From the IMG/VR virus record IMGVR_UViG_3300019487_000006, positions 1-64,000 of that record: DNA of 64,000 nucleotides. One strand, 5' to 3'. Below are positions 1 through 15,022 of this stretch, in pieces (positions within the stretch are counted from its first letter, which is position 1; each line of letters begins with the position of its first letter). Below the pieces are notes generated by a model, which worked only from the letters and a program-made list of their open reading frames with translations, made no database searches and was not told the DNA's origin. The translations under genes were made by a program, and so were the position numbers. This DNA comes from a virus.

Positions 1-77
1 GCGTTATGGATAGAGAATGAGTCGTCCTTGTGGATAATCAGGCGTAACTCCAAGTGAGCGGTAAGAGGGCGGTGAGT

Positions 78-794
78 ATGCTCCAATGCGCGTTGATTAG
101 GTTTTCTCTCATCTTAGCCGTGATGGTTCTAGTAATGAATTGCTCTCTGTCGGCGTATGCTGGACAAGTCTCACTTGTGGGTGGGCTTGGCGGGGCCTTC
201 TTCCAGAACACAGTGGATGATGGTACGTGGAGGCAGGATAAAGTGCAAACGCCGAATACGCGGCTGTTCGACCGTGCATGGAAGGTTGGCCTTGAATATC
301 GAATCAATCCACGATGGTCGGTACAGAGTCATTACTTTGATTGGGGCGAGAACGTTACCAAGTCCCTGTTTGCGAGTGACGACGACTATTATGGTGGGCG
401 CTGCCACAGCGGTCCAGGCCCGTCTTGTCCAGCGTCCTACAATCGCGTGGTAGACCGTATGAAAGGTGTTGATGTGACGGTAAGTCGGTACTGGAAGGTA
501 AATGAGGTGATGGAATTGTATCTGACCGGAGGAGGGGCGATGACATTTCACGAGTTGAAGTGGGCCGGAGGCGACGGCGTCTATGGTCCGACCAGATTTT
601 ATGGAAACATTCCGATGCTCGTGGTTGGTGGAGGGCTGTGCTACAATACGATGTTTTGCTGGGATACGAACTTTTACATGGGCACTCTGTCGATGAACAG
701 CGGGTGTATCGGTGGTGGGCAGACTGAGTGCGGGTATCCACTCGCCAAGCAAGTGGTCGAGACCGCTGCGTTGGTGAAAATACCGTTCAAGTAA
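78..794 (+). CDS. secreted / outer-membrane beta-barrel-like protein (putative)
   Basis: ORF track 54..794. ATG 78 follows AGAGGG. Signal-like N-terminus LILAVMVLVMNCSLSAYA|GQ. Gly/aromatic-rich alternating segments. No enzyme motif seen. Confidence 0.4.
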   Translation: MLQCALIRFSLILAVMVLVMNCSLSAYAGQVSLVGGLGGAFFQNTVDDGTWRQDKVQTPNTRLFDRAWKVGLEYRINPRWSVQSHYFDWGENVTKSLFASDDDYYGGRCHSGPGPSCPASYNRVVDRMKGVDVTVSRYWKVNEVMELYLTGGGAMTFHELKWAGGDGVYGPTRFYGNIPMLVVGGGLCYNTMFCWDTNFYMGTLSMNSGCIGGGQTECGYPLAKQVVETAALVKIPFK

Positions 795-804
795 AGGAGG
801 ATAA

Positions 805-1266
805 ATGGACAAGTACGCGGGTGCCAGTATAATCATCGTTGGTCTTTTACTGTTTCTGATGGCGGCTATACTTGCTCTCAAAGAAGGCTTCCTTTACTGG
901 GATGGAATACACAAAAAGTCTTCCCCTAGTACCGTTACAGCCCCACCAGGACTCCCGATTACGATGCTGACGACCGGCTATCACTGTCCACGGGGAGCAA
1001 AACAGAAACAGTGCGATGCCCTCTTTAATGATGGCTTGACCGCAACGATGACTCCGGTGAGGCGAGGGGTATGTGCTGCCGACTGGCGAGTGTTTCCCGT
1101 CGGGACCAAATTCTATCTCCCTAGATACGGCTACTGTACCGTGCAAGACAGTGGGTCACGAATCAAACTCCTTTCCATTGACTTCTACTACGAGTTAAAC
1201 GAGGACGCGATTAAACACGGCAAACGCTTGGAGACTGTTTACCTTATTCGATGGGGGGCGGAATGA
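805..1266 (+). CDS. membrane-anchored 3D-domain (MltA/RlpA-like) cell-wall hydrolase
   Basis: N-terminal TM segment IIIVGLLLFLMAAILAL. C-terminal GVCAADWRVFPVGTKFYLPRYGYCTVQDSGSRIKLLSIDFYY carries the three conserved Asp of the 3D domain. RBS AAGGAGG lies upstream. Confidence 0.55.
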   Translation: MDKYAGASIIIVGLLLFLMAAILALKEGFLYWDGIHKKSSPSTVTAPPGLPITMLTTGYHCPRGAKQKQCDALFNDGLTATMTPVRRGVCAADWRVFPVGTKFYLPRYGYCTVQDSGSRIKLLSIDFYYELNEDAIKHGKRLETVYLIRWGAE

Positions 1267-1296
1267 TGAAACAAACTCAAATGAAGGAAAGGCGAC

Positions 1297-1452
1297 ATGG
1301 GCACCCGTGACGCATTCAATAGTTGGTTGATGTACCACAAGTCATTGACATACAGCGAGTATTCAAAGCTTGAGAGCGGCACCAAACTTGCAATCCAGGC
1401 TGAGTACCAGGGGAGAAAAAAAGTCGCGAAAGTCGTTGACACGGGCGCGTAG
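1297..1452 (+). CDS. small hypothetical protein (51 aa, below ORF-track cutoff)
   Basis: ATG 1297 follows AAGGAAAGG. Translation is MGTRDAFNSWLMYHKSLTYSEYSKLESGTKLAIQAEYQGRKKVAKVVDTGA, read by hand. Confidence 0.3.
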   Translation: MGTRDAFNSWLMYHKSLTYSEYSKLESGTKLAIQAEYQGRKKVAKVVDTGA

Positions 1453-1613
1453 AAGCGTATACTGACACTGTTTTACTTGAATGGGGAGGGCTCCTACCGT
1501 GGCGAAACCCAAAGCGTCTAATTCTCGTGTGGTCTCACTTCGGGCTATTGACGCCCGTCTCGCCGTCATCGAAAATATGCTCGTGAAAATCTACTCCACT
1601 GTGGAGAGAATCA

Positions 1614-1832
1614 ATGAACGAGAACGGGTCATCATCGACGAACCCTTTTGAGTCGTGCCGTCGGTGTCACACCGGTTGGCTGGAATTAGAGGATGTGCGT
1701 GACGAACAGGGTGACATGCGCGGGTGGCAATACCGGTGTGTGCAGTGTGGTGGACGGCAGGACTTCTCCGCACGAAAAGTGATGAGTAAGACGAAACGAA
1801 TAGGAGGGTTTCTTCGTGGCATTCACGGGTGA
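1614..1832 (+). CDS. zinc-ribbon protein
   Basis: CRRCHTGW...YRCVQCGG gives two CxxC pairs. It resembles the ORF at 24881..25192 (CYRCQG...WRCVNCG). Confidence 0.45.
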   Translation: MNENGSSSTNPFESCRRCHTGWLELEDVRDEQGDMRGWQYRCVQCGGRQDFSARKVMSKTKRIGGFLRGIHG

Positions 1833-2073
1833 CGTTGACGTTGACGAATTCACGGCAGCGGTGTGTCTGGCTCAACATGGAACGCATCACGGCGTCCCGT
1901 ACTCGTATGGTATTGGTTACTATCAATTAGTCTGTTTTCATTGTTACACCGTGAGTCCTAAATTCTTTCGTAAGATTGATCCATCAGACGGGTGGGAACG
2001 GCTTTCTCTTAAACTTGTCTCTTCAGAACAATTTTGGGAATGTGTTAGTAAAGCCAAGGACGAGCGCCGATGA
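1816..2073 (+). CDS. small C-H-C-C zinc-binding protein, family member 1
   Basis: GTG 1816 lies 7 nt after AGGAGGG. Motif DEFTAAVCLAQHGTHH...CFHC is shared with the ORFs at 11860, 12104 and 12279. Confidence 0.5.
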   Translation: MAFTGDVDVDEFTAAVCLAQHGTHHGVPYSYGIGYYQLVCFHCYTVSPKFFRKIDPSDGWERLSLKLVSSEQFWECVSKAKDERR

Positions 2074-3122
2074 TGCCCTTTTACGTCGATAATACTCAAC
2101 TCTCCGCCGTCCAGACCTGTGAAATGAAGGCAGGGTTACGCTACGTCCTTGGTCTCACTACAGGAGAGGAGCGGCTTGAGCTAGACGCCGGGACCGCTTG
2201 CCACGTTGCTCTAGCCGCGTGGCACCAAGGGCGCAGTAAATATGACGCCCTGGCGGAATTTGAGAAAATGTACCGCCCCCTTACCACTCATGTCAGTGCA
2301 GAGGAACGCCTGTCCTATCAAAATGTCCATCGCTGCCTCGACCGGTTCTTTTCGTTTTATGAACAGAACCCCATGCCGTATACCCCTCAGAAGGGATTAG
2401 TGGAGGTCGTGTTCGAGGCTCCCTTGGACGCCAATGGAGACTTTCAAATGGTCGGGCGGATTGACCTGATCGCTGCCTACAAGCAACGACTTGTGGTGTT
2501 TGAGAATAAGACCACCGGTGGGTTGAACGATTTCTGGAAGCGTCGATGGCCTATGACCAGTCAGTTGACGACGTATGTATTTGGGGCGCAGGAAGGATAC
2601 GTGAACGGTAAGCGATTGGGGCTTCCGATTGAAGAGGCCCTGGTCTTGGGTATCGAACTACGCAAAATTCCTGAAAGCACGCGCAAGTGTCCAGAACATA
2701 AACTCCCCTACAGTGAATGTGGAATGATGCACATTAAGTGGGAGTACAGCGGCCCCCATCCACGTCCTACCGGGTTCATTGAACGGTGGCGTCGGGATGC
2801 GCTGGAAGCCGCGATGAAGTTCAAATCCATTACTGAACAAGTTCATACGGTACAAGACGCAGCGGACAAGCTTCAGCAAAATGGCCAGTTTAATGACTCC
2901 TGTCGGTACTGTGAATTCAACGATTCTTGCCGACAGGGGGTGCCAGCAGATTTAATGACCGCGAATCTATTGAAGTCGCCATGGAATCCGCATGACGTGA
3001 AGCATACTGAACTGATCCAGTTGTCGAAAACGCACGCGACCCCCTCGACACATCAGGCGTCCCTCGTCGATGTGACGACTGGAAGTGCGCCGGTGCCGTC
3101 GAATGCGAAACGAGGTGAGTGA
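2070..3122 (+). CDS. PD-(D/E)XK (Cas4/RecB-like) exonuclease
   Basis: GRIDLIA...VVFENKTT...QLTTYVF core. Cys near the N-terminus (QTCEMK) plus C-terminal CRYCEFNDSC, typical of Cas4-like Fe-S nucleases. Confidence 0.7.
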   Translation: MMPFYVDNTQLSAVQTCEMKAGLRYVLGLTTGEERLELDAGTACHVALAAWHQGRSKYDALAEFEKMYRPLTTHVSAEERLSYQNVHRCLDRFFSFYEQNPMPYTPQKGLVEVVFEAPLDANGDFQMVGRIDLIAAYKQRLVVFENKTTGGLNDFWKRRWPMTSQLTTYVFGAQEGYVNGKRLGLPIEEALVLGIELRKIPESTRKCPEHKLPYSECGMMHIKWEYSGPHPRPTGFIERWRRDALEAAMKFKSITEQVHTVQDAADKLQQNGQFNDSCRYCEFNDSCRQGVPADLMTANLLKSPWNPHDVKHTELIQLSKTHATPSTHQASLVDVTTGSAPVPSNAKRGE

Positions 3123-3343
3123 TGCGTTGGGTGAGAAGAAAGATCGATATTTATCAATGGCATCGACGGTTTGCGTGGGGAATTACTGAACGGAAGCTTG
3201 ACAATTTTACGACCGAGAAATTCTGGCTCGTGTGGTTATGGTTTCGGCGTGAACAAGACCCAAAGTATGGTGGGTTAAAATGGAGCGTTAAAACTCAGGC
3301 CGAAATGGTTGCCGAATCGTTATGCCCCGAAAAGGTGAAGTGA
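3119..3343 (+). CDS. hypothetical Trp-rich protein (tandem paralog A)
   Basis: WHRRFAW...FWLVWLW...KWSVKTQAEMVAESL parallels the next ORF. Confidence 0.45.
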   Translation: MMRWVRRKIDIYQWHRRFAWGITERKLDNFTTEKFWLVWLWFRREQDPKYGGLKWSVKTQAEMVAESLCPEKVK

Positions 3344-3603
3344 TGCACTGGTATTGGAGGAAACGTGTTCAAGACCCTAAAAAATGGCATAAGACGTTTG
3401 CGTTACTTCCAAAAATGCAACGTAATAGAATAAACGGTATAAGTATACGGGAGTGTGAATTTTTTTGGTTGATGAATGTCTACCGAGCGCTGTGTACTAG
3501 AGAGACGTGTACACTAGACTCCGCTATGGAGTGTCCCAATAAATGGCACTATAAAACTCAATCCCAAATGACGGCTGACGCCTTGGAAGGACTAGATAAA
3601 TAA
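3343..3603 (+). CDS. hypothetical Trp-rich protein (tandem paralog B)
   Basis: ATG 3343 overlaps the upstream stop (GTGATG). WHKTFAL...FFWLMNV...KWHYKTQSQMTADAL parallels 3119..3343. Confidence 0.45.
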   Translation: MHWYWRKRVQDPKKWHKTFALLPKMQRNRINGISIRECEFFWLMNVYRALCTRETCTLDSAMECPNKWHYKTQSQMTADALEGLDK

Positions 3604-3604
3604 A

Positions 3605-4417
3605 ATGGCTGAACCAAAACGGCATCCTGATATTCACCTTCTATTGTACGGGGAATCTGGCAGTGGGAAATCCACATTTTGGTCCACGATGATTCGTTAT
3701 TATTCGACTAACTTTAATGAACCCTCGTTGATTCTCTCATTTGATCCATGGGATAAGGCCACCCCATACCTGGAACTCGGCACCGTCCAGAAATGCGAGG
3801 AGCAGTACTACAAGACCATCGGGTTGGAGGTGGACGATGTCGTGGACGCAAAGGGCAACCTGATAGTACGGGTGGAATATTACGCGGACCCTGACCCAGA
3901 CAACCCGACGGCGATCTCCTTATTTGAGAAACGCATGGTCGGGTTTGAAAAGGAGTGCCGAAATTGGGCCAGTGTTGGGATGGACTCGATGACCTATTTC
4001 CAGCGAGCCAGCTTATTGAAGTGGAAAAAGCTGAATCCATTGGAGTCGGTCAAGCAGCAGACCAATATCTCCTGGTATGGTGGCGTCGCAGAGGACGCTG
4101 GAGCGGCGGTCATGTCCCGCGCCGCGTGGTGGCGAACCAACGTCGGCGTGATCTGCCACATCGATGAGGCGAAAGACGACCTCGCGGACTTTGGGGTTGT
4201 TCGTAGTGTGGCGCTGGCTGGCAAGTTGTCCAAGCGTGCCCCTGCCGGATTCGGGGAAGTGTATCGAATGCGGGTGGTCGTCAGCGGGAAAGGTGAGCAA
4301 TATAAACGAGAGTTACAGACTCAAGCGGACACGCAGTGGGTGGCCAACTCGTTAGTCGCCAAGGCACCGAACCCTTGTGCTCCATCATATGAGGCGTTGT
4401 GGGGTTCGGCAAAATAG
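3605..4417 (+). CDS. AAA_24 / Sak4-like RecA-fold ATPase
   Basis: Walker A LLLYGESGSGKST. Walker B-like VGMDSMTYF. It sits between a nuclease and a DUF669-like gene, as in phage recombination modules. Confidence 0.7.
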   Translation: MAEPKRHPDIHLLLYGESGSGKSTFWSTMIRYYSTNFNEPSLILSFDPWDKATPYLELGTVQKCEEQYYKTIGLEVDDVVDAKGNLIVRVEYYADPDPDNPTAISLFEKRMVGFEKECRNWASVGMDSMTYFQRASLLKWKKLNPLESVKQQTNISWYGGVAEDAGAAVMSRAAWWRTNVGVICHIDEAKDDLADFGVVRSVALAGKLSKRAPAGFGEVYRMRVVVSGKGEQYKRELQTQADTQWVANSLVAKAPNPCAPSYEALWGSAK

Positions 4418-4624
4418 ATGTTACTCCACTGTAGTCAATGTCCTCATGAATTCGAGTCCTTTGACCGGACCATGCCCTGCGATTGGTGCGGGGCGTCAAG
4501 TTATATTATCAACGAAACCACCCCGTTTGAGAAGTGGTTGGGAACGAGGATGGAACGAGGAGGTGTCCAGGACGTTGTAGATGAATTATTGGCCCGTAAC
4601 GAGGAGCGTGAGAGTTATCCTTAA
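4418..4624 (+). CDS. zinc-ribbon protein
   Basis: CSQCPH...CDWCG. Start abuts the upstream stop. Confidence 0.45.
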   Translation: MLLHCSQCPHEFESFDRTMPCDWCGASSYIINETTPFEKWLGTRMERGGVQDVVDELLARNEERESYP

Positions 4625-4648
4625 CCATTCACCCTATAAGGAGTTGCC

Positions 4649-5284
4649 ATGTCATTACAGTTACCAGAACAAATCAAGGAGCCGTTTTCGCCGTTGCCCA
4701 TCGGAGTCTTGAAAATGCGTATCGAGGACGCCATTCGAGATATGATTGGTAACGAAAACCCCAAGTTTGGGGTGCGTGTTGCGTTGGAAGTGGAGGAGCC
4801 GTTGGATGCGGAGGGGTTGAGTGAGGAAACCGTGTTCATCTTCGGTACCGACGAGGACCCTGGAACGTTGGAGGGTGGAGTGAAGCCTGAAACTTATACC
4901 GCCAAGGCTGGCCGGTTTGCCATGTTCTGCGACGCCGCAGGGGTTGAGGCGCGTGGCAAGAACTTGGACGTCGTGTTGTCTGATCTCAAGGATCACCGGA
5001 TCAAGAGCCGCACGACCGCGACCAAGGAACCCGCCGTCGTCCAGTGGGGTAAGAACAAGGGGCAGGCAAACCCCTACGCGGGACGGTATCGAGTACGGAC
5101 CGCTCAATGGTACAGTGCGAACGAGGGACCGGCGTACGGTATTCAAACCACGGTCCGTGAGCTTGAGGCGAAGGATAACAATGGTGGAGGCACCGCCGCA
5201 TCGTCTCCATCACTTACCACCGCACAGGCTCCACCGCCCCCGGCGGCACCGAGCCCCAGGGCGGCGTTTCCTCGAACGAGGTAA
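4649..5284 (+). CDS. DUF669-like (ssDNA-binding-like) protein with Pro/Ala-rich tail
   Basis: RBS AAGGAG. N-terminal FSPLPIGVLKMRIEDA...FGVRVALEV resembles DUF669, which usually follows Sak4 genes. C-terminus is low complexity (APPPPAAPSPRA). Confidence 0.45.
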   Translation: MSLQLPEQIKEPFSPLPIGVLKMRIEDAIRDMIGNENPKFGVRVALEVEEPLDAEGLSEETVFIFGTDEDPGTLEGGVKPETYTAKAGRFAMFCDAAGVEARGKNLDVVLSDLKDHRIKSRTTATKEPAVVQWGKNKGQANPYAGRYRVRTAQWYSANEGPAYGIQTTVRELEAKDNNGGGTAASSPSLTTAQAPPPPAAPSPRAAFPRTR

Positions 5285-5287
5285 TCC

Positions 5288-5377
5288 ATGGGAACCGTGG
5301 CGGTTATCGTACTAGGAGCCATTGCGTTGTTTCTCGTCTACGTGATGGTGAGTGGAATCAAGAAGGGCGGTAAGTAG
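5288..5377 (+). CDS. 29-aa single-TM micropeptide (putative)
   Basis: Hand translation MGTVAVIVLGAIALFLVYVMVSGIKKGGK. It starts 4 nt after the upstream stop. Confidence 0.3.
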   Translation: MGTVAVIVLGAIALFLVYVMVSGIKKGGK

Positions 5378-5379
5378 GT

Positions 5380-6170
5380 GGCGGAAGTCTCCCGTTCTAC
5401 GGGGAGAACGCACATCGAACGGTCAGTGATGATCGGACCTAGACAGTCGCAGTAACGGCCTGGAGTCTCCCAAGTGCTGACCGAGATTGGGATGACAAGC
5501 GGGGTGGAGGTGGTAGCTAATGACACCAGTAGACGCCTTCATGAGGGACACGCCCTCCTGTGCGATGAAGTTGAGGGACGCCTCAATGGAGCACGGTGCC
5601 GGAAAAACTGCATGTCTGGTATTCCGTGCGGGGGTTGGCATCCCCGCCCTACTTACCTTTTTCTGGATGGGGGCAAGCGAAATGGGTCGGGGGCTGCCTC
5701 TCCCTCGTTAGAGTGGAAGCGCGTCGTCGTGTCGCCCATACTGTTCGACGACCCCCCATCCTCTGTTTGGTCGTTGGTGCGACATGTCCGTTTTAAGTGT
5801 GACACCCAACGTGTGATGGGAACGGAAATGAAACAAGCGACCCCACTAAATCGCACCACCCCGCGCCGTGACGGTTTCACGGCATGACCGAGCGTCTCCT
5901 CGGTAGGGCGCGGAAAGGCTAGGGTCGCTCCTGATGCTGAGTACACAAACTACCTAGGTGTCCCGTTGATTATCCGGGGCACCGACGGGGCGTGTGAGAG
6001 TGTTAATTAGTGAAAGGTGGGTCGAGCGTGTTATCGGTCCTTCAGCCCACTTCTCACTATATTGTATATCGTATAGTGACGAGCGACCGAACAACAAGAA
6101 GGAAGCTCGGTACTCCTTTAGCTTGAGTCAGCCCGATAATCTCAAGGTAAAGGGGTATTTATATTCGATA
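5380..6170 (+). ncRNA. candidate large structured non-coding RNA (class unknown)
   Basis: No RBS-led ORF. All three + frames are open together around 5596..5711 and - strand ORFs overlap the region too. Dense GC hairpins: GAGGG-acacg-CCCTC (5543..5557), TTGAGG-GACG-CCTCAA (5571..5586), GCGGGG-N8-CCCCGC (5628..5647), CCGTGA-cggtt-TCACGG (5866..5882). Strand is assumed from the flanking genes. Confidence 0.3.
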
Positions 6171-6180
6171 GGAGGGAGCG

Positions 6181-6579
6181 ATGGAAGTATTCAAGCTGAC
6201 ATGCCTGGACAGTGAAGTAGTTGAACAATGGCCCAAGGTGCCTGAGACGGCTACGCCTATTGCAAATCCAAACTTTTTTGGTGACCCCTGCGAACCGGAA
6301 ACTTTGGACCCTCGACAAATGCACCGGTTGAAGCAGCCCCACTTTCACCTTACGTTTAGTGGAGAGGCCGTAATCCAAGTTGGGAAGCAGCATGAGGTCA
6401 TGATGTTTGGGAAGTACAAAGGCCAAAAGGTCGCTGACGTCCCTGACCACTATCTCCACTGGATGATTCGTAAGAGTCTCAGTGACGCGGTGGACTTATA
6501 CATCGAGCTACGGAGGCGTAAAGTGTCCAAAGCGTTTGAAACAGGTGAGAATACGTTGGTAGATACCTTGACATTCTAA
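6181..6579 (+). CDS. DUF3820-like motif protein
   Basis: RBS GGAGGGAG. FGKYKGQKVADVPDHYLHWMI matches the F-G-K-x-K-G...VP..YL.W motif. Confidence 0.5.
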   Translation: MEVFKLTCLDSEVVEQWPKVPETATPIANPNFFGDPCEPETLDPRQMHRLKQPHFHLTFSGEAVIQVGKQHEVMMFGKYKGQKVADVPDHYLHWMIRKSLSDAVDLYIELRRRKVSKAFETGENTLVDTLTF

Positions 6580-6878
6580 TGGCACTTTACCGTTGTAAGA
6601 CTGAGGCCATCACCGACTTCGTCTCTATCGAGGCCGTAACCAAGGCCGAGGCGATTAAAACATTTCGTGACCTCCTGAATTCTCAGGAAGGCTTGAAGGA
6701 GTTTACCACCCATGTTACAGTGGAACGACTTACAGTGGTACGACAAACAGTGGTTCGTGGAAAAGTTAGGAAAATTAAATGTCCAGTGTGCGAGATTGTC
6801 AAAGACCGCAAAGAATTCATGGAACACGTTCGCACAACGCATGTCATGGTTGAACGCGGGAGGGATGACGATGAGTAA
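6579..6878 (+). CDS. hypothetical protein with C2H2-like finger
   Basis: CPVCEIVKDRKEFMEHVRTTH has C-x2-C-x11-H-x4-H spacing. Confidence 0.45.
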   Translation: MALYRCKTEAITDFVSIEAVTKAEAIKTFRDLLNSQEGLKEFTTHVTVERLTVVRQTVVRGKVRKIKCPVCEIVKDRKEFMEHVRTTHVMVERGRDDDE

Positions 6879-7275
6879 TATCAGTGGGGTTACATCTTTA
6901 ATGCCAGTGCTTCAGCCGGGAGCAACGGTTACTGTTACTAGTTCTTCATCTTCTAGTTCACTCTCAGGAGGGTTGTTGTACAATCAAATCTATCCATACA
7001 GCAATCCAAAAACCTACCAACAAGGTTTATCAGCACAGCCATTTTTTAATCCAATTCCCGGTCAAGACCTTGTGGCGTTATTCGAGCAAGCCGAAGCTGA
7101 TGGTGTCGCAGTCCATGAGAATAAGTTCTTGTTCGGGGTTCATTCGACTAGGCCCATGCGTGACGTTCCAATTGAATACCTGCTCCAAATCCATAAAGTC
7201 GTCAAAGGTATCCGACGCGCTATCATGGTGGAAGTTCGGCGACGGGCGGTAGTGCAAAGGTTTCAAGAAAAGTAA
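6871..7275 (+). CDS. Ser-rich protein with DUF3820-like C-terminus
   Basis: ATG 6871 lies 6 nt after GGAGGG (ORF track 6712..7275). C-terminus is FGVHSTRPMRDVPIEYLLQIHK...EVRRRAVVQRF. Confidence 0.45.
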   Translation: MSNISGVTSLMPVLQPGATVTVTSSSSSSSLSGGLLYNQIYPYSNPKTYQQGLSAQPFFNPIPGQDLVALFEQAEADGVAVHENKFLFGVHSTRPMRDVPIEYLLQIHKVVKGIRRAIMVEVRRRAVVQRFQEK

Positions 7276-7290
7276 GTAGATCAACGTCCA

Positions 7291-7620
7291 ATGAGTACCC
7301 CAGAGGAAAGGTTACTTCGGGCCTTGAAACCGCATGAAGTGGCAGAGTTAGTAGAAGACGCCGAAGACCGCTTTCATCGGTCTCGGCCAAAGTTGCTGGT
7401 TCCTGGATTGTGTGGGCGGTGTGAACGGGCATGGATTATTCGACGTGATCGTATTCGCGAACCGGAGGTCTGGTGTACGTATCGAGACCCCAGCGTGCGT
7501 GTGCCACCAGACATTATCGAGTGTAGTAAGTTCAAACAAGCCGGGGCCGTGTCACCCCTTGAATTGGCACAGATGGCGAAGTTGATCGAGAAACCGACCG
7601 ATACCGGTCACTACTTTTAA
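7291..7620 (+). CDS. hypothetical protein
   Basis: 109-aa ORF in a co-directional gene array. Contains CGRCERAW. Confidence 0.4.
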   Translation: MSTPEERLLRALKPHEVAELVEDAEDRFHRSRPKLLVPGLCGRCERAWIIRRDRIREPEVWCTYRDPSVRVPPDIIECSKFKQAGAVSPLELAQMAKLIEKPTDTGHYF

Positions 7621-7632
7621 GGAGGGAGTGTT

Positions 7633-8133
7633 ATGAGTACCGCACATTTACCCGCCGAGCGTCGCAGTGAAATTGCCCGTATGGGGGCTTTGGCGAGAAA
7701 CGCCAATCGTACTCGCAAGTCTTTCGAGGAAGCTAATCGTCGCGAAGTCGTCGCAGCGCGGCAGCGCGGCGGAGCCACCAACGGTAAAATCGAGGTGGAC
7801 CCAAAGTTTTTCACTGACCTCCATCACCTAATCGAGTCGTGGGGGCCACAGTTGGGACACCGCAATCGTCCGGCTAAGACTGCATTGGCTGGGCCGGTGG
7901 ACTTCACGGCGGATATCGAGGATATCTCGTTGTTGAAGGTGGGAGAGGCGTTGGTGGTGACCCTGCGGCGCTTGCGGGGGTTGGGGTATCACAGCGTCAG
8001 TTCAGGGGCCGTCCACGCATATCAAACCGCGCAACGAGCAGGGTTCAAAGTGTATGTTATGCGGCTGTCACGAGGGTCTATGCTCATCTACCGTCCACGG
8101 GCCAATGAAGTTCTACGGTCCCACACGTTATAA
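7633..8133 (+). CDS. hypothetical protein
   Basis: RBS AAGGAGGGAG precedes the 166-aa ORF. Confidence 0.45.
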   Translation: MSTAHLPAERRSEIARMGALARNANRTRKSFEEANRREVVAARQRGGATNGKIEVDPKFFTDLHHLIESWGPQLGHRNRPAKTALAGPVDFTADIEDISLLKVGEALVVTLRRLRGLGYHSVSSGAVHAYQTAQRAGFKVYVMRLSRGSMLIYRPRANEVLRSHTL

Positions 8134-8151
8134 GATGAGGAGACTGTCAAC

Positions 8152-8547
8152 ATGGCGAATGACCAATTTCCTTGGAGTGAATTAAATAGAGAGGAGTTGT
8201 TTCGTGTGTCTAAGGAAAAAATGATGTATCAAGAATCTTATACAAAGTTACAAGACTTGATGAAAAGAATCCATCCCCCAGACGCGCAAACGGCGCTAGG
8301 ACTGGTTGGAAAGGTAGAGTATCCCCTTGACGAGCATACCTATTTAACCAAGGACAACCGGCTCGCCTTTGGTCTGTTTTGTGGAAAGTTCCTCGATGAA
8401 GTTCCACTAGAGTATTTACTTCAGTTGGTGTCGCATGGCCAGTTTATCCATGACATTGGTGAGAAGGAACTACGGCGGCGTGCAGTAGTGGAGGAGTTCG
8501 ACAAAACCAGTAAGGACGTGGCAGGCGTAGCAGATAAAGCTGGATAG
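8152..8547 (+). CDS. DUF3820-like motif protein
   Basis: RBS GAGGAG. FGLFCGKFLDEVPLEYLLQLV...ELRRRAVVEEF parallels 6871..7275. Confidence 0.5.
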   Translation: MANDQFPWSELNREELFRVSKEKMMYQESYTKLQDLMKRIHPPDAQTALGLVGKVEYPLDEHTYLTKDNRLAFGLFCGKFLDEVPLEYLLQLVSHGQFIHDIGEKELRRRAVVEEFDKTSKDVAGVADKAG

Positions 8548-8549
8548 CC

Positions 8550-11500
8550 ATGCGACGTATCCAGGGGTGGGGCCGATACGACGCTCGTATTGTCCTGATT
8601 GGTGAGGCCCCCGGCGAGAACGAGGAACGGTTGGGGGAACCGTTTGTCGGGGCGTCGGGATTTCGTCTCAAGCAATGGTGGGAGAAGGTCGGGCTACGTC
8701 GTGAAGACCTTAGAATCGAAAATTTGGTCGAGTATCGACCGCCTCACAACAACATCGAAGCGTTCGACCGCGCCTATCTTGAACAGTGGATGTCCTACCT
8801 GCATGACCGGATCACCTCCCTTCCAGACCCATACGTATTAGTCCCTACTGGTAATTACGCCCTCTATGCCTTGACCCGTAAAGGAAAGGTCAAGTGGCAT
8901 AACCGTGAAGGTCACGAGACCCGTCCTGGGATCACCAACTGGCGAGGGTCTATTCTCAGTTATACCGACCTCAAGGGTCGTGAGATTAAGGTCATTCCGA
9001 CCATCCATCCCGCTGCGACCTTTCGTTCCCCCTCAGATGAAGTCGTGTGTATTCATGACTGGAAACGGATTGTAGAGGAATCCCAATATAAGGACCTGCG
9101 ACTCCCTAAACGGACGCACGAGACAAGGCCGACACTCAACTACGTAGAGGACTACTTAGCGGGGCTCCCCAAAGACAGCGTCGTCGCGGTGGACATCGAA
9201 AACCCTCGACGAAAGGTGACAAAGGAGGTTATCAATGACGCCACAGGTAGAAAAGTCAAAAAAACGGAGTATCTCCCAGCCGAAATCGTCTGTATGGCAT
9301 TTTCCCACACACCTGAGTATTCGCTTACTGTGCCCCTCATCAAAAGCTATTGGGGAGATCACAGCAAGTTGGAGTCCGTATGGGGGTGGATTACTCGGTT
9401 CCTTACCAGCGACACCTCTTCTAAAGTCTTCCACAACGGGTTGTACGACACGTTTCACCTTTCATGGGAGCGAAATATTTCGGTGCAAAATTACCGGTTT
9501 GACACGCTCTACATGCACCATTGTCTTGACCCGGCGGACGCGCATTCCCTTGACTATTGCGCCAGTCGTGATACCCGTGAGCCGTATTGGAAGTGCCTTA
9601 GTCCAGGGACACGTATCCTCACGACCGAGCTTATATGGAAAAAAATAGAGGAACTTAAGGTTGGTGATGAACTTATAGGGTTTGATGTTCAACCAGTCAA
9701 TCGAAAACGAAGGTTTCGTCGAACAACGGTTAAATCGTGCGGAAAGTTACGAAAGCCCTGTTATCGAATTGAGTTTGTTGATGGAACCCAAGTAACTGCC
9801 AGTAAAGAGCATCCATGGCTGGCTCAAAAATACCGCTTGTGTCATTCCTTATTCTGGGTTGAAACCCAACACCTCTCGGCTGGAATGAAAGTTGGGCGAC
9901 TATGTTCTCCATGGGAGACTGACAATACATACGAAGGTGGATGGTTGGCTGGGCTGTATGATGGAGAGGGAAGTTATGGCCCGTCAACAATGTCGTTCTG
10001 CCAGAATCCAGGTGACGTACTTGAGCGTGGAAAAGCGTGGTTGACTATGAAGGGGTTTCGATGGAAAACCTATAATAAAAGTGAGGTTGGACGGATTCAC
10101 CGAGTAACATTTACGTCAACACCTGACGTATTACGCTTTCTTGGGTCTATTCGACCAACACGCTTACTCAAAAACAGTCATCGCGCCTGGGAAGGTAAAC
10201 GGACCGACAGTTTTATTTATAAAAAATTGGAGATTGCAAGCGTTACTTATGTTGGAGAACAAGAAGTGGTCGGTCTTGAAACGACCACAAAAACGTTCAT
10301 TGCGGAGGGACTGTATACACACAACTCAGAAGCGAAAGATTCCGATGAAGCCGCGAAGTACGTCTCTAATTGGGAAGCCTTCCTAGTCTACAACGGGAAG
10401 GACGCCGCTGTAACTCGTGAACTCTACGACGTCTATCATCACCGTCTTGTGGAGCGTGGACAACTAGAGTTTTACCAGAAACACTACACAGAACTGCTCC
10501 AGCCTCTTCAGGCACTACAGTTGCACGGTATACGTGTTGATGATGAAAAACGACGCTACCGGCTCGCCCACCTCCTCGCGGATTGTATCGGCATCCAAGA
10601 CCAGCTTGAACAACTGACGGGTATTCGACTGTACGCGGACAAGACATTGTCGCCGGTGAAACTCAAACATTATCTCTATACGGTGCTGGGCCTCCCCGAA
10701 CAGCTACGAGCACGTAAATCGCGGGGTGAGAAGACCGCCTCCGCTGATGAACTGGCGGTCCGTAAACTCATGCTCAAGTATCCCACAGTGTTGAATACCA
10801 CCGGAGAACTGATTCTACAACACAAGCGCAAGGCCAAATTGACCGAGTTTTACCACGAAAATCGCGTGGATGCGGATGGACGGTTCCGGTCATCCTATTC
10901 ACCCAATACTGAAGCAGGGCGACTGTCTTCCAGTAGTAATCCTAACCAAACTGGCGGGAACGCGCAAAACGTCGACCGGGAGACAAGGGATGCGTTCATT
11001 CCAGACCCCGGTAAAATCCTCGTGGAGGTGGACCTGTCGCAGGCTGAGGCCCGTATCGACTATGCCCTCATCTATCGGTTGACTGGCAGTAAAGATATGT
11101 ATGAACGGGCGCGGTTGCGTCCCGATGAATATGACCAACACACGGAGAACGCTTCCTTTATCTTCAACAAGCCGACTAATCAGGTGATGAAACGTGAGCG
11201 TTACCTGGGCAAGAAGGCAGTCCACGGGGCATTCCGCGACATGCAGGGCAAGAAATTGTCAGATGAACTCCTCAAGGAGGGGTTTGTCGTGGATGAACGC
11301 GAAGCCGACCGTATGCTTGTCGAGTTTAAGAAGCGCGTCCCAGGTATTGAGGAACTATTTCGATGGGTTCGACGACGTATCCTCGAAGAGCGAATGTTGG
11401 TAAACTCATGGGGGCGGCGGTGGTACTGCACCTACGACCGGATGGGGGACGAGTTGTTCCGTCGCGGATACAGTTTCGATCCACAAAGCGAGATGGCTGA

Positions 11501-11810
11501 CTGGATGAATCAGCTTGGCTTTAAGCCGTTTTTCTGGTATATTCATGACCTCTGCCAACGGGAGGGCCGCGACGTGGGAGCCATCAATGTTCATGGTCAC
11601 GACTCCTTGGTCTATTCCATCCTGCCGCAGTATGCGTACGAGACGACAAAATTTCTAGTCGAGTCACTTGAACAGGAGCGAGTGATGCGCGATGTGCCGT
11701 TATCGATTCCTTGTGAGGTAAAATGTGGGAGAACGTGGAAAGGCGAACACGAGTGGAAGAGGCTGCCGTCGCGGGCCGAATTTGACGCCGTTATCGATAG
11801 CCTTACTTGA
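8550..11810 (+). CDS. DNA polymerase: UDG-like domain + 3'-5' exonuclease + family A polymerase (intein-containing precursor)
   Basis: Family-4 UDG-like motifs GEAPGENE..PFVGASG and IHPAA. Exo motifs VDIE, HNGLYD, YNGKDA. Pol A motifs DLSQAEAR, RYLGKKAVHG, HGHDS. Confidence 0.9.
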   Translation: MRRIQGWGRYDARIVLIGEAPGENEERLGEPFVGASGFRLKQWWEKVGLRREDLRIENLVEYRPPHNNIEAFDRAYLEQWMSYLHDRITSLPDPYVLVPTGNYALYALTRKGKVKWHNREGHETRPGITNWRGSILSYTDLKGREIKVIPTIHPAATFRSPSDEVVCIHDWKRIVEESQYKDLRLPKRTHETRPTLNYVEDYLAGLPKDSVVAVDIENPRRKVTKEVINDATGRKVKKTEYLPAEIVCMAFSHTPEYSLTVPLIKSYWGDHSKLESVWGWITRFLTSDTSSKVFHNGLYDTFHLSWERNISVQNYRFDTLYMHHCLDPADAHSLDYCASRDTREPYWKCLSPGTRILTTELIWKKIEELKVGDELIGFDVQPVNRKRRFRRTTVKSCGKLRKPCYRIEFVDGTQVTASKEHPWLAQKYRLCHSLFWVETQHLSAGMKVGRLCSPWETDNTYEGGWLAGLYDGEGSYGPSTMSFCQNPGDVLERGKAWLTMKGFRWKTYNKSEVGRIHRVTFTSTPDVLRFLGSIRPTRLLKNSHRAWEGKRTDSFIYKKLEIASVTYVGEQEVVGLETTTKTFIAEGLYTHNSEAKDSDEAAKYVSNWEAFLVYNGKDAAVTRELYDVYHHRLVERGQLEFYQKHYTELLQPLQALQLHGIRVDDEKRRYRLAHLLADCIGIQDQLEQLTGIRLYADKTLSPVKLKHYLYTVLGLPEQLRARKSRGEKTASADELAVRKLMLKYPTVLNTTGELILQHKRKAKLTEFYHENRVDADGRFRSSYSPNTEAGRLSSSSNPNQTGGNAQNVDRETRDAFIPDPGKILVEVDLSQAEARIDYALIYRLTGSKDMYERARLRPDEYDQHTENASFIFNKPTNQVMKRERYLGKKAVHGAFRDMQGKKLSDELLKEGFVVDEREADRMLVEFKKRVPGIEELFRWVRRRILEERMLVNSWGRRWYCTYDRMGDELFRRGYSFDPQSEMADWMNQLGFKPFFWYIHDLCQREGRDVGAINVHGHDSLVYSILPQYAYETTKFLVESLEQERVMRDVPLSIPCEVKCGRTWKGEHEWKRLPSRAEFDAVIDSLT
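9594..10325 (+). mobile_element. intein (244 aa) with LAGLIDADG motif, inserted between Exo II and Exo III
   Basis: Begins at Cys of CLSPGTRIL. Block B TASKEHPWL. WLAGLYDGEGS. Ends FIAEGLYTHN followed by +1 Ser. In frame with the polymerase. Confidence 0.85.
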
Positions 11811-11859
11811 TGCGGTTTTTCGGCCATCACCATTATTGACGTATTTGAGACGGAAGCAT

Positions 11860-12081
11860 ATGAGTGAATGGACCCTCGATCCAGACTTCGAGTACGCCAC
11901 CGACCCGTTTGTCCGGGCCGTATGCAAGGCGCGAGGACATCAGTGGCAGACAGTTTCTATGGAAGTAAGACATCGCTATGGTTTAACGAATGTGATGTGT
12001 ACGCGATGTTATGTATATGGACTTACACACGATGAAACCATTACGACGACCGTCGACGCCACGGACTCCACCAACGGGTGA
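11860..12081 (+). CDS. small C-H-C-C zinc-binding protein, family member 2
   Basis: ATG 11860 (ORF track 11725..12081). DPFVRAVCKARGHQW...CTRC. Confidence 0.45.
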   Translation: MSEWTLDPDFEYATDPFVRAVCKARGHQWQTVSMEVRHRYGLTNVMCTRCYVYGLTHDETITTTVDATDSTNG

Positions 12082-12103
12082 GACGCCCCCGCGTCACGCC
12101 ATC

Positions 12104-12301
12104 GTGATTAAAGGTGGACAACGTCCGCCTAAAGGCGGTCAGTTTGAAGAGGCCGTATGTCTTGCACGGCACGGAGGACATACTTACATCACCGCCCAGA
12201 ACGAACTCCAACTATTTTGCATCCATTGTGGAGCCCCCCTGGATTGGAAATCGATCACTCAATGGGAGAAAACGGCCCGTGTCGACCATCGACGTGGATG
12301 A
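12104..12301 (+). CDS. small C-H-C-C zinc-binding protein, family member 3
   Basis: ORF track 12011..12301. GTG 12104 is chosen to avoid overlapping the upstream gene, so the start is uncertain. QFEEAVCLARHGGHTY...CIHCG. Confidence 0.4.
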   Translation: MIKGGQRPPKGGQFEEAVCLARHGGHTYITAQNELQLFCIHCGAPLDWKSITQWEKTARVDHRRG

Positions 12302-12464
12302 GTTTACCAGGAAGGTGTGTATGGCCACGCACGGTGGGTATCATCCAGACGCGGTGTCACCTACTACGGTCTGTCCAAGTTGCGGGGTAGATGCCCTCAC
12401 CGCTGCGATAGATAATATACAACGACTACTCGATGGGCTTTCTGACACTTTTAAGACCTTATAA
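12279..12464 (+). CDS. small C-H-C-C zinc-binding protein, family member 4
   Basis: GTG 12279 lies about 10 nt after GGGAG (ORF track 12114..12464). STIDVDEFTRKVCMATHGGYH...CPSCG closely parallels 1816..2073. Confidence 0.4.
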   Translation: MSTIDVDEFTRKVCMATHGGYHPDAVSPTTVCPSCGVDALTAAIDNIQRLLDGLSDTFKTL

Positions 12465-12485
12465 CATCCTCAAAGGAACTCTCAC

Positions 12486-14447: not shown

Positions 14448-14544
14448 ACAAGAATCTGGAGTGGCGACCGTCACCATCCCTTGGTACACTCGTACCCCGG
14501 ACGATCTCACGGAGGCCCTCTGGTTTTTCCAAGGTGGTGTATAG

Positions 14545-14760
14545 ATGGTCACTAAACATAAAATACATGGTGGATTCGATCATGACATATCCGTCTGGAA
14601 GGATGACTGGAGCAACGGTTGTCGCTACTTGCTAATGAGGGACGAGCGTGACGGTACAGGAGAATGGTGGGACAAAACTAAACAGTGCTGGATACAATGC
14701 GACGCCTTCCAGGTTGCCATTCTCGCCAGCCAGTTAGAGAGGGAACGCAATGATAGTTGA
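14545..14760 (+). CDS. hypothetical protein (tandem paralog A)
   Basis: GEWWDKTKQCWIQCDAFQVAILASQLERE parallels the next ORF. Confidence 0.45.
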   Translation: MVTKHKIHGGFDHDISVWKDDWSNGCRYLLMRDERDGTGEWWDKTKQCWIQCDAFQVAILASQLERERNDS

Positions 14761-15022
14761 CATTATAAAGAAGGAAAATCGACATTTTTATACACGTTTT
14801 AGTTATAACGATTTAGCATCTTACACGTCTGCGTATTATGACACCTGCGACAATGTTGCTCCATTTCGTTTACTTATCTTTGCTGATGGAACTGGGGGAC
14901 AGTGGTGGCTCGAAGGTGAGAGAAACTGGTATCGCTGTGATCCATTCGAGACTGCCATTCTCAAACGGCAACTGGACATAAAGGAGTCATATGACAGGGA
15001 CGAGCAAGGAACCAAACCATGA
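14750..15022 (+). CDS. hypothetical protein (tandem paralog B)
   Basis: GQWWLEGERNWYRCDPFETAILKRQLDIKE parallels 14545..14760. Confidence 0.45.
   Translation: MIVDIIKKENRHFYTRFSYNDLASYTSAYYDTCDNVAPFRLLIFADGTGGQWWLEGERNWYRCDPFETAILKRQLDIKESYDRDEQGTKP

What the first reader, a model, noticed from the sequence alone, without database searches (positions are those of the whole stretch)
5380..6170. About 790-nt ORF-poor, hairpin-dense region inside the replication module: candidate large structured RNA
The flanking genes are tightly packed with clear RBSs. Here there is no RBS-led ORF, and all three forward frames are open at once around 5596..5711, with reverse-strand ORFs overlapping the region as well. 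That pattern fits stop-poor, non-coding GC-rich sequence rather than a gene. The region is full of short perfect stems, for example 5543..5557, 5571..5586 (GACG tetraloop), 5628..5647, 5866..5882 and 5958..5983. An 8-bp dyad TCACTATA/TATAGTGA lies at 6051..6077, just upstream of the next gene. Large ornate RNAs such as GOLLD and ROOL are known from phages, but I could not match any known RNA (tmRNA, RNase P, or group I/II core motifs) by eye. The alternative is a decayed gene.
Basis: partly seen in the sequence, partly recalled or inferred. Interest (0 to 1): 0.65.

Follow-up and report, generated by a model that had tools for sequence, protein, structure and literature searches.

The report
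New structured phage RNA, tRNA-slot
The first ~290 bases of this "empty" stretch encode a previously uncatalogued, intricately folded phage RNA that sits where sister phages carry a tRNA gene, while the remaining ~520 bases are still unexplained.

Summary
The ORF-poor gap (5378-6180) is real. It is not one 790-nt RNA. Window 5369-5657 (+) is a ~289-nt structured RNA with nine sequence types on at least 17 metagenomic or viral contigs, 46-86% identical between types. A profile built without the window finds it at E=4e-20. A 16-17-helix fold is strongly supported: 89-94% of cells are paired against 35-45% when partners are slid, and 47-51 pairs show compensatory changes. The fold has a closing stem, a loop-to-internal-loop pseudoknot and a consensus K-turn. 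Six lineages have a near-consensus sigma-70 promoter that starts transcription 0-25 nt before the closing stem. No Rfam family, tRNA or tmRNA matches; only one lineage gives a weak manA-like hit. In two lineages the RNA lies inside dense tRNA arrays. In five it lies within 3 kb of an RNA ligase, and in four of those also near an RF-1 rescue-factor gene. The window's closest relatives carry tRNA-Met in exactly this slot. Best reading: a stand-alone stable RNA of the GOLLD/ROOL kind, with unknown function. Within the remainder, 5885-6045 is conserved noncoding sequence shared with one sister contig. The stretch 5658-5884 has no relatives and no coding signal.

The parts
5369..5657 (+). Conserved structured RNA (full extent, closed by the 10-bp helix P1)
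   Evidence: nhmmer homology to L013, L118, L129, L141-L150, L161, L240, L235 and L247. A profile built without the window hits 5377-5649 at E=4e-20.
5369..5378 (+). P1 5' strand GGUAAGUAGG. It pairs with 5648-5657 (CCUACUUACC) and overlaps the TAG stop (5375-5377) of the 29-aa ORF.
   Evidence: Inverted repeat I1. P1 covaries in every lineage and is 21 bp long in L240 and L235.
5381..5411 (+). P2 (GCG/CGC) enclosing hairpin P3 (5387-5408). The conserved P3 loop is GUUCUACG.
   Evidence: P2 pair types are GCG/CGC, CCA/UGG, GCU/AGC and GCA/UGC.
5396..5400 (+). Pseudoknot 5' strand UCUAC (P3 loop), pairing with GUAGA at 5529-5533
   Evidence: All 45 cells are paired. L013 changes both sides, CCUAC/GUAGG.
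5420..5435 (+). P4 hairpin (CGGUCA-GUGA-UGAUCG in the window)
   Evidence: MFE fold. The equivalent hairpin covaries in the other lineages and is flanked there by AGUA/GAAA, which is loop-E-like.
5438..5458 (+). 5' strands of the long-range helices that pair with 5599-5624 and enclose the central multi-helix junction
   Evidence: Helices 6-8. The GUGC/GCAC to GCAC/GUGC swap between L240 and L235 was read.
5459..5503 (+). Variable arm (P6)
   Evidence: All 6 pairs of helix 10 show compensatory changes.
5504..5542 (+). P7 arm with invariant GGUAGC (5512-5517) and CAGUAGRCG (5527-5535)
   Evidence: 9-bp stem, 6 pairs with compensatory changes. Invariant columns are listed.
5543..5557 (+). P8 hairpin GAGGG-ACACG-CCCUC
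   Evidence: 4 of 5 pairs show compensatory changes.
5558..5596 (+). K-turn arm: C stem 5558-5563/5591-5596, 3-nt bulge GAU 5564-5566, tandem G.A from GA 5567-5568 and GA 5589-5590, then the NC stem and GACG loop 5577-5580
   Evidence: The consensus C-stem/NNN/GA...GA/C-stem is kept in all lineages while both stems covary.
5628..5647 (+). P10 3' hairpin GCGGGGGU-UGGC-AUCCCCGC, stacked directly on the P1 3' strand
   Evidence: Pairs covary, GCGGGG/CCCCGC against GUGGAG/CUCCAC against GAGGGG/CCCCUC.
5658..5884 (.). Unexplained spacer. It is hairpin-rich on both strands, with no relatives and no coding signal.
5885..6045 (+). Noncoding blocks conserved with sister contig L246 (downstream of its tRNA-Met). 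Includes hairpins 5887-5904 and 5958-5983.
   Evidence: nhmmer E=2e-8; alignment A7.
6054..6079 (.). 8-bp dyad TCACTATA / TATAGTGA in the AT-rich stretch upstream of gene 6181. Possibly an operator or promoter-proximal site (inference only).
5289..5377 (+). 29-aa hydrophobic ORF whose stop codon lies inside P1
   Evidence: Read from the sequence.

Best explanation
Window 5369-5657 (+) is a gene for a stand-alone, highly structured non-coding RNA of about 290 nt. It belongs to a family that no current library describes.

Shown:
- The sequence is conserved across nine sequence types.
- It has a closed fold of 16-17 helices, with a 5'/3' closing stem, a pseudoknot and a K-turn.
- The fold is strand-specific: conserved G-U pairs occur only on the + strand.
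- Six lineages have a strong sigma-70-type promoter placed so that transcription begins at, or about 20 nt before, the closing stem.

Inferred:
- The RNA is made early. In the window, where no promoter is seen, it is probably made by read-through from the upstream replication genes.
- It is trimmed to the closing stem. The 21-bp version of P1 in two lineages would suit RNase III.
- It acts in trans as a compact RNA particle, like phage tRNAs and the GOLLD/ROOL RNAs with which it shares genomic habitat.
- Its job most likely concerns keeping translation or tRNAs working during infection. It replaces tRNA-Met in the same slot in sister phages, lies inside tRNA arrays, and travels with an RNA ligase and an RF-1-type ribosome-rescue factor.
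- The K-turn and the loop-E-like motif are candidate protein-docking sites.
- A palindromic UUGCAA (or CCGG) loop at the tip of the K-turn arm in six lineages suggests dimerisation through a kissing loop. The window's own copy has GACG there.

The remaining 5658-6180 is not part of this RNA.
For: - Homology: (E=4e-20 without the window). Three members not used to build core model R1 score 41, 39 and 73 bits.
- Structure: one search gives 84 pairs, 93.5% of cells paired against 38-45% when slid, 47 pairs with compensatory changes, and 0 of 500 shuffles reaching the observed value. One search, with eight lineages, gives 88.8% against 35-45%, and 51 of 74 pairs compensatory. The pseudoknot covaries in L013.
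- Strand: + strand z=-2.8 against - strand z=-0.7. G-U pairs are conserved.
- Promoters: TTGACA-17-TATACT, TTGACG-17-TAGTAT, TTGTGA-18-TAGAAT and TTGACA-17-TATATT lie 7-8 nt before P1 (about 22-25 nt in L240 and L235).
- Context: L240 has 17 tRNAs and L235 has 10 around the RNA. tRNA-Met(CAT) occupies the same slot in L246, L002 and L003.
- Neighbouring genes: RNA_ligase PF09414 and RF-1 PF00472.
- Known parallel: GOLLD and ROOL are 'often near tRNA islands', and GOLLD env-38 lies downstream of Met-tRNA (bioRxiv 10.1101/2024.12.08.627333).
- Palindromic loops.
Against: - No transcript data exist.
- No promoter was found in the window or L013.
- No terminator follows the RNA in any lineage.
- In five lineages the next ORF starts only 5-36 nt after P1, which is the layout of a 5' leader.
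- The window's 64-kb contig has no RNA ligase, RF-1 gene or tRNA, so the link to translation is not universal.
- Four of the RF-1-linked contigs were found by searching for RF-1. However, L118, L129, L161, L240 and L235 were also found by DNA pattern alone.
- The palindromic loop is absent from the window, L013 and L247.
- The structure was derived from the same alignments on which it was scored.
Confidence: 0.6

Rival explanations
1. Cis-acting 5' leader: a riboswitch-like, antitermination or translation-control element that governs the genes immediately downstream on the same transcript.
For: In all lineages the RNA is co-oriented with the next gene. In six it lies directly behind a promoter. 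In five it ends 5-36 nt before a start codon with no terminator between. The weakly similar manA motif was proposed to be cis-regulatory (PMC2864571).
Against: - Downstream genes are unrelated: small ORFs plus RF-1, a VWA protein, a QSregVF_b-like protein, and an unknown gene.
- In the window the next gene is 523 nt away, and in L013 it is 139 nt away.
- No alternative pairing or expression platform overlaps an RBS or a terminator.
- The RNA is interchangeable with a tRNA gene in the same slot, and it lies inside tRNA arrays.
Confidence: 0.25
2. The whole 790-nt interval is one large ornate RNA, with a window-specific 3' extension of the conserved core.
For: The 5653-6180 stretch also folds better than shuffles (z=-3.5). 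One 12-nt segment (5903-5914) is complementary to the 3' strand of P10/P1 (I3).
Against: P1 closes the fold at 5657 in every lineage. No relative carries the extension. The - strand folds almost as well (z=-3.1). The part 5885-6045 is shared with L246, which lacks the RNA altogether.
Confidence: 0.05
3. Decayed or unusual protein-coding gene.
For: A gene caller called a 137-aa ORF at 5474-5887.
Against: That ORF has no true homologue. There are no Pfam or PHROG hits for any ORF on either strand. Substitutions between relatives are compensatory in helices, with indels not in multiples of three. tblastn with all neighbouring proteins of related loci gives only noise.
Confidence: 0.02
4. DNA-level element, such as a replication origin or single-strand initiation signal inside the replication module.
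For: It is located between recombination/SSB-like genes and the DNA polymerase in the window. L013 has a 35-nt tandem repeat just downstream.
Against: Conserved G-U pairs and the folding asymmetry are specific to one strand. RNA motifs are present (K-turn, pseudoknot). Promoters are dedicated to the element. In six lineages the element sits in non-replication contexts.
Confidence: 0.03

Closest known systems
GOLLD and ROOL RNAs (large ornate phage/prophage RNAs of unknown function)
   Same: Phage-borne. Elaborate multi-helix, pseudoknotted fold. No known protein partner. Found in or beside tRNA islands; GOLLD env-38 lies downstream of tRNA-Met, and here the RNA replaces tRNA-Met in the same slot. 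Self-association is possible here through a palindromic loop, and it is demonstrated for GOLLD and ROOL.
   Different: No match to any Rfam model, even at E<=10. Size is 280-345 nt, against about 580 and more than 800 nt. The conserved sequence blocks differ. Oligomerisation has not been tested.
manA RNA motif (Rfam RF01745; cyanophage and marine)
   Same: The 5' module looks alike: closing stem, UG, a 2-3-bp helix, GAAUA-type bulge, hairpin, UAA, return strand. There is also a GGUAGC...GUAG hairpin and a GGUA...UCC hairpin (alignment). Both are phage RNAs. In phage S-CREM1, manA lies flush between two tRNA genes.
   Different: Only one lineage (L129) scores, at 14.3 bits and E=0.21, against a gathering score of 55.2. 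The window, L013, L118, L141-type and L161 give nothing. Our core model does not find a genuine manA. This RNA is about 100 nt longer, with a K-turn arm, long-range helices and a 3' hairpin that are not in the manA consensus printed by cmscan.
Bacterial Y-like RNAs (YrlA) in rsr-rtcB RNA-repair operons
   Same: A structured RNA closed by a 5'/3' stem, encoded next to an RNA ligase. In two lineages it lies directly upstream of a VWA-domain protein, and Ro60 carries a VWA domain (this last point is from my own knowledge, not tested).
   Different: No TROVE/Ro60 gene. The VWA protein matches only generic VWA domains. No tRNA-like T-arm. The RNA is 2-3 times larger. No Rfam Y-RNA hit.
tmRNA
   Same: The 5' and 3' ends pair, and a hairpin abuts the 3' strand as in an acceptor/T-arm stack. 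It neighbours a ribosome-rescue-type RF-1 gene. Size is similar.
   Different: ARAGORN and Rfam are negative. By inspection there is no G3-U70, no CCA, no T-loop consensus and no conserved tag reading frame. P1 varies from 8 to 21 bp.

Membership tests
Any Rfam 15 family | Covariance-model score at or above the family's gathering threshold | tested here: not met
   Zero hits for the whole window. Permissive scans of the window, L013, L118 (as L125), L129, L150 and L161 give only sub-threshold chance-level hits.
manA RNA (RF01745) | Score >= 55.2 bits against the manA model | tested here: not met
   14.3 bits and E=0.21 for L129 only. Nothing for the five other lineages tested.
manA RNA (RF01745) | Reciprocal recognition: a model of this RNA's core finds a genuine manA (S-CREM1, 96.6 bits to Rfam) | tested here: not met
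   R1 gives no hit at E<=10 in L140.
manA RNA (RF01745) | 5' module: P1, UG, short helix with GAAUA/UAA internal loop, hairpin | tested here: inconclusive
   Present by eye in all lineages. No statistical support for homology.
GOLLD / ROOL | Match to the family covariance model; size about 580 to >800 nt | tested here: not met
   No Rfam hit. Length is 279-344 nt.
GOLLD / ROOL | Phage-encoded, near tRNA islands | tested here: met
   L240 and L235 lie inside arrays of 17 and 10 tRNAs. tRNA-Met occupies the same slot in L246, L002 and L003. This is a feature of habitat, not of homology.
GOLLD / ROOL | Homo-oligomeric RNA-only assembly | not testable with these tools
   The only hint is the palindromic UUGCAA/CCGG loop in six lineages.
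tmRNA / tRNA | Detection by ARAGORN or Rfam; tRNA-like domain with T-loop, G3-U70 and CCA; tag ORF | tested here: not met
   Inspection of P1 and P10.
RNase P RNA / T-box / other large ribozymes and riboswitches | Rfam model match | tested here: not met
   No hit even at E<=10 in 300-1100-nt searches.
Y RNA / YrlA | Adjacent Ro60 (TROVE) gene and a Ro-binding stem | tested here: not met
   The neighbouring proteins are RF-1, RNA ligase and generic VWA. No TROVE domain.
Riboswitch / cis-regulatory leader (as a functional class) | 5'-UTR position plus an expression platform (alternative terminator or RBS-sequestering helix) | tested here: inconclusive
   The position fits in 5-6 lineages. No terminator or RBS-sequestering alternative was found by scan or inspection. 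The window's next gene is 523 nt away.
K-turn-containing RNAs (structural motif) | C stem, 3-nt bulge, tandem sheared G.A/A.G, NC stem | tested here: met
   The sequence consensus is kept in all lineages while both stems covary. The three-dimensional kink itself has not been tested.

The most novel reading that the evidence does not exclude
A new class of phage 'ornate' RNA belonging to a translation-protection toolkit made up of tRNA arrays, an RNA ligase and an RF-1-type rescue factor. It would be an early, abundant, self-associating RNA particle (kissing-loop dimer or higher oligomer) that binds or shields tRNAs, ribosomes or a repair enzyme, or that decoys a host tRNA- or rRNA-targeting defence nuclease. 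It would be functionally interchangeable with a tRNA-Met gene at the same genomic slot.
Probability: 0.3. Interest if true: 0.8.

Novelty: new variant of a known kind. Interest (0 to 1): 0.62.

Why it matters
Complex-fold RNAs of about 300 nt with unknown function are rare. Each past example (RNase P, tmRNA, riboswitch classes, OLE, GOLLD, ROOL) has pointed to new biology.

This family is small enough for direct structural work and carries recognisable building blocks: a K-turn, a pseudoknot and a loop-E-like motif. In most lineages it has a host-type promoter, so it can be expressed in a laboratory host.

Its genomic company is tRNA islands, the slot of tRNA-Met, an RNA ligase and an RF-1 rescue factor. 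That company gives a concrete, testable lead on an open question: what do tRNA-island-associated phage RNAs such as GOLLD and ROOL actually do?

Tried and rejected
- **GenBank phages.** blastn and megablast with the region, the first 20 kb and two relatives found nothing.
- **Flanking proteins in IMG/VR.** No relatives of the 211-aa or 132-aa proteins. The 132-aa protein has only one 33%-identical relative anywhere.
- **DNA patterns.** CTCCCGTNCTACGGGGAG and GGTTGGCATCNCCNCCC gave only chance matches. The genome-contig scan gave 8 chance matches and no member. L119, L122 and L127 looked similar by eye but were rejected by the HMM and the CM.
- **tmRNA idea.** Prompted by the P1/P10 stack and the RF-1 neighbour. 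Rejected: ARAGORN and Rfam are negative, there is no G-U or CCA, and the apparent 23-codon frame is not conserved.
- **RNase P, SRL mimic and 16S 3'-end mimic.** These were resemblances by eye, not conserved across lineages, and there is no Rfam support.
- **manA relationship.** Not reproducible beyond L129.
- **Second copy of the RNA in the remainder.** The alignment score is below the shuffled mean.
- **Decayed tRNA-Met in 5653-5890.** None.
- **Shared partner protein** between the RF-1-type loci or L240/L235 and the window. None.
- **Ro60 link of the VWA protein.** Only generic VWA matches.
- **Fremin et al. 2023 candidate list.** Supplements are not held, so prior listing cannot be excluded.
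- **Full-length covariance model.** Not attempted, because the stated calibration limits were expected to exclude about 290 positions. A 102-position core model was used instead.
- **First control script.** It timed out and was redone.

Full report
**Setting.** The window is a 64-kb metagenomic phage contig (ENA ERZ27251177). Genes 54-16223 all run on the + strand and form a replication/recombination module:
- PD-(D/E)XK exonuclease, 2070-3122
- Sak4-like ATPase, 3605-4417
- a 211-aa protein, 4649-5284
- a QSregVF_b/ExoX-C-like protein, 6181-6579
- a UDG-PolA fusion, 8550-11810
- a class II ribonucleotide reductase
- a DUF3987 primase-like protein

There is no DNA match to GenBank phages.

**Observation.** The gap is real. 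After the 211-aa gene and a 29-aa hydrophobic ORF (5289-5377), nothing credible is coding until 6181.
- The three forward ORFs that overlap at 5596-5711 and all reverse ORFs lack Pfam and PHROG hits.
- The 137-aa ORF called in the source record has no true relative among 1.8 billion representative proteins.
- The + strand of 5380-6180 folds better than shuffles (z=-5.1); the - strand does not (z=-1.6).
- In 280-nt windows the z-scores overlap those of the neighbouring genes. Energy alone proves little.

**What is conserved.**
- nhmmer with the gap found a ~290-nt match in L013. That contig shows the same synteny: the match lies right after a homologue of the 211-aa gene.
- Conserved blocks were turned into DNA patterns and scanned over public collections. 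The scans added L118 (a 168-kb viral contig), L129, L161, L240 and L235.
- Protein-guided look-ups added nine near-identical contigs, L141-L150, and L247.
- That makes nine sequence types, 46-86% identical to each other.
- A profile built from three relatives without the window hits window 5377-5649 at E=4e-20.
- A 102-position core covariance model (R1) scores members that were not in its training set at 41, 39 and 73 bits. It scores nothing else in about 0.65 Mb of loci.

**Structure.** RNAalifold gives the same architecture on four, seven and nine rows.
- On alignment A4: 84 pairs in 16 helices, 93.5% of cells paired against 38-45% with slid partners, 47 pairs with changes on both sides against 8-16 when slid, and 0 of 500 shuffles reaching the observed values.
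- With the two most divergent lineages added (A6): 88.8% against 35-45%, 51 of 74 pairs compensatory, covariation score 0.56 against at most 0.16.
- Caveat: the structure was derived from these same alignments. The margin is nevertheless large.

Elements in window coordinates:
- P1: 5369-5378 with 5648-5657, 10 bp here, 8-21 bp elsewhere.
- P2: 5381-5383 with 5409-5411.
- P3 hairpin: 5387-5408.
- Pseudoknot: P3 loop UCUAC (5396-5400) with GUAGA (5529-5533). L013 changes to CCUAC/GUAGG.
- P4: 5420-5435.
- Long-range helices: 5438-5458 with 5599-5624. They enclose four arms, P6 to P9.
- P7: carries the invariant GGUAGC and CAGUAGRCG.
- P8: 5543-5557.
- K-turn arm: 5558-5596. This is a textbook K-turn, with a C stem, 3-nt bulge, tandem G.A and NC stem.
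- P10: 5628-5647, abutting the P1 3' strand.

Other structural points:
- Six of the nine sequence types (not the window or L240/L235) flank P4 with AGUA/GAAA, which is loop-E-like.
- Conserved G-U pairs and the fold asymmetry (z=-2.8 on +, -0.7 on -) fix the strand.

**Transcription signals.** Near-consensus sigma-70 promoters lie 7-8 nt upstream of P1 in L129, L161, L141 and L118, and about 22-25 nt upstream in L240 and L235. No such promoter is seen in the window or L013. No terminator follows the RNA anywhere.

**Identity.** No Rfam 15 family reaches threshold in the window. Permissive scans of six lineages give only noise.
- The single noteworthy hit is manA (RF01745) for L129, at 14.3 bits and E=0.21 against a gathering score of 55.2.
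- The 5' module does look alike. The hit does not recur in other lineages, and R1 does not find the genuine manA of cyanophage S-CREM1.
- ARAGORN finds no tRNA or tmRNA in the RNA itself.
- I therefore do not file it under any known family.

**Context.**
- *tRNA-Met slot.* The closest relatives of the 211-aa gene (L246 at 67%, L002 and L003 at 65%) carry tRNA-Met(CAT) immediately downstream of that gene. This is the slot that the RNA fills in the window, L013 and L247. L005 and L006 carry yet another conserved noncoding element there.
- *tRNA arrays.* In L240 and L235 the RNA sits inside arrays of 17 and 10 tRNAs. It lies after tRNA-Leu or tRNA-Glu and before a VWA protein and tRNA-Met.
- *RNA ligase and RF-1.* In L118, L129, L161, the L141 group, L240 and L235 an RNA ligase (PF09414) lies within 3 kb. 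In all of these except L240, an RF-1-domain (ArfB/PrfH-like) gene is also present. In the L141 group, PRPP-synthetase-like and NAMPT genes follow.
- *Not obligatory.* 69 other IMG/VR RF-1 loci and the RtcB-RF-1 loci lack the RNA. The window has no ligase, RF-1 gene or tRNA.
- *Known parallel.* GOLLD and ROOL are likewise phage RNAs 'often near tRNA islands', and GOLLD env-38 lies downstream of Met-tRNA.

**Mechanism.**
- *Shown:* a conserved, strand-specific, closed fold, with its own promoter in most lineages.
- *Inferred:* a stand-alone stable RNA acting in trans, probably on the translation or tRNA-maintenance side of infection.
- The K-turn and loop-E-like motifs are possible protein sites.
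- A palindromic UUGCAA (CCGG in L161) loop at the tip of the K-turn arm is a possible kissing-dimer contact. It is absent from the window's clade, which has GACG.
- The 21-bp P1 of L240 and L235 would be an RNase III substrate.
- The main rival is a cis-acting leader. It is favoured by the promoter-RNA-ORF layout without a terminator. It is disfavoured by the unrelated downstream genes, the 523-nt distance in the window, the lack of any expression platform, and the interchange with a tRNA gene.

**The rest of the interval.**
- 5658-5884 has no relative in 1.66 Mb of related loci or elsewhere in the window. It shows no tRNA remnant and no protein signal. It folds equally well on both strands. 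It remains unexplained.
- 5885-6045 is homologous to the sequence downstream of tRNA-Met in L246 (E=2e-8). Fully conserved blocks include the loop UUGAUUAUC of hairpin 5958-5983 and GGGGCGUGUGAG. This is a conserved noncoding element independent of the RNA.
- The dyad at 6054-6079 lies in the AT-rich stretch before gene 6181. A role as an operator or promoter element is only a guess.

**Verdict.** There is a new ~290-nt structured phage RNA family, closest in habitat to GOLLD and ROOL and faintly similar in its 5' module to manA. Its function is unknown. Next to it lies about 520 nt that is only partly conserved and still unexplained.

Noticed in passing
L246 1176-1248; L002 1251-1325; L003 2464-2540: tRNA-Met(CAT) genes lie immediately downstream of the homologues of the window's 211-aa gene. 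This is the exact slot that holds the structured RNA in the window, L013 and L247.
   Followed up: partly
L005 2708-2842 and L006 6768-6870: A different conserved noncoding element, CAUGAGAACGCCUGGAGYCAGAAGG ... CCACAGAACGGCGUGAC, occupies the same slot in two other relatives. It has a closing stem and apparent compensatory changes, but only two sequences are available.
   Followed up: partly
L013 about 7010-7085; L004 4204-4277: A 35-nt tandem direct repeat (CTGACAAATGGCCGCCGTTTTACAGCGGACGGTTG, two copies) lies just downstream of the RNA in L013. The region is homologous to the intergenic DNA of L004, which lacks the RNA. It may be iteron-like.
   Followed up: no
L140 (Synechococcus phage S-CREM1, OP535465 10132-10501): The genuine manA RNA lies flush between tRNA-Leu and tRNA-Asn, with an abiF RNA 30 nt further on. 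That is the layout of a processed stable RNA rather than a 5' UTR element.
   Followed up: no
L141 3001-6360; L118 3909-6003: Downstream of the RNA lies a gene island: RF-1-domain protein, 64-aa ORF, RNA ligase (PF09414), PRPP-synthetase-like protein and NAMPT. It resembles RNA-repair plus NAD-salvage (counter-defence) modules. Other phages pair the same RF-1 protein with RtcB instead (L151-L155).
   Followed up: partly
L240 2470-2520; L235 6395-6444: Inverted repeats flank the -10 element of the RNA's promoter (spacer against transcribed leader). They may form an operator. The promoters also have a T-rich UP-like tract.
   Followed up: no
window 5289-5377: A 29-aa hydrophobic ORF (MGTVAVIVLGAIALFLVYVMVSGIKKGGK) has its TAG stop inside the RNA's closing stem. 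L006 has a 38-aa ORF at the same place.
   Followed up: no
window 8421-8700: The + strand folding z-score (-2.9, 25 shuffles) is as low as anything in the studied gap. The stretch spans the junction before the UDG-PolA gene start at 8550.
   Followed up: no
window 8550-11810: The DNA polymerase A carries an N-terminal uracil-DNA-glycosylase-superfamily domain (1086 aa). The same fusion is present in relatives L003, L005, L006 and L007.
   Followed up: no
window 5903-5914 against 5641-5652 and 5374-5385: GTAGGGCGCGGA repeats the RNA's 5' start (GTAGGTGGCGGA) and is 11/12 complementary to the P10/P1 3' strand 250 nt upstream. It could offer an alternative pairing, but the similarity is not above chance.
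   Followed up: partly
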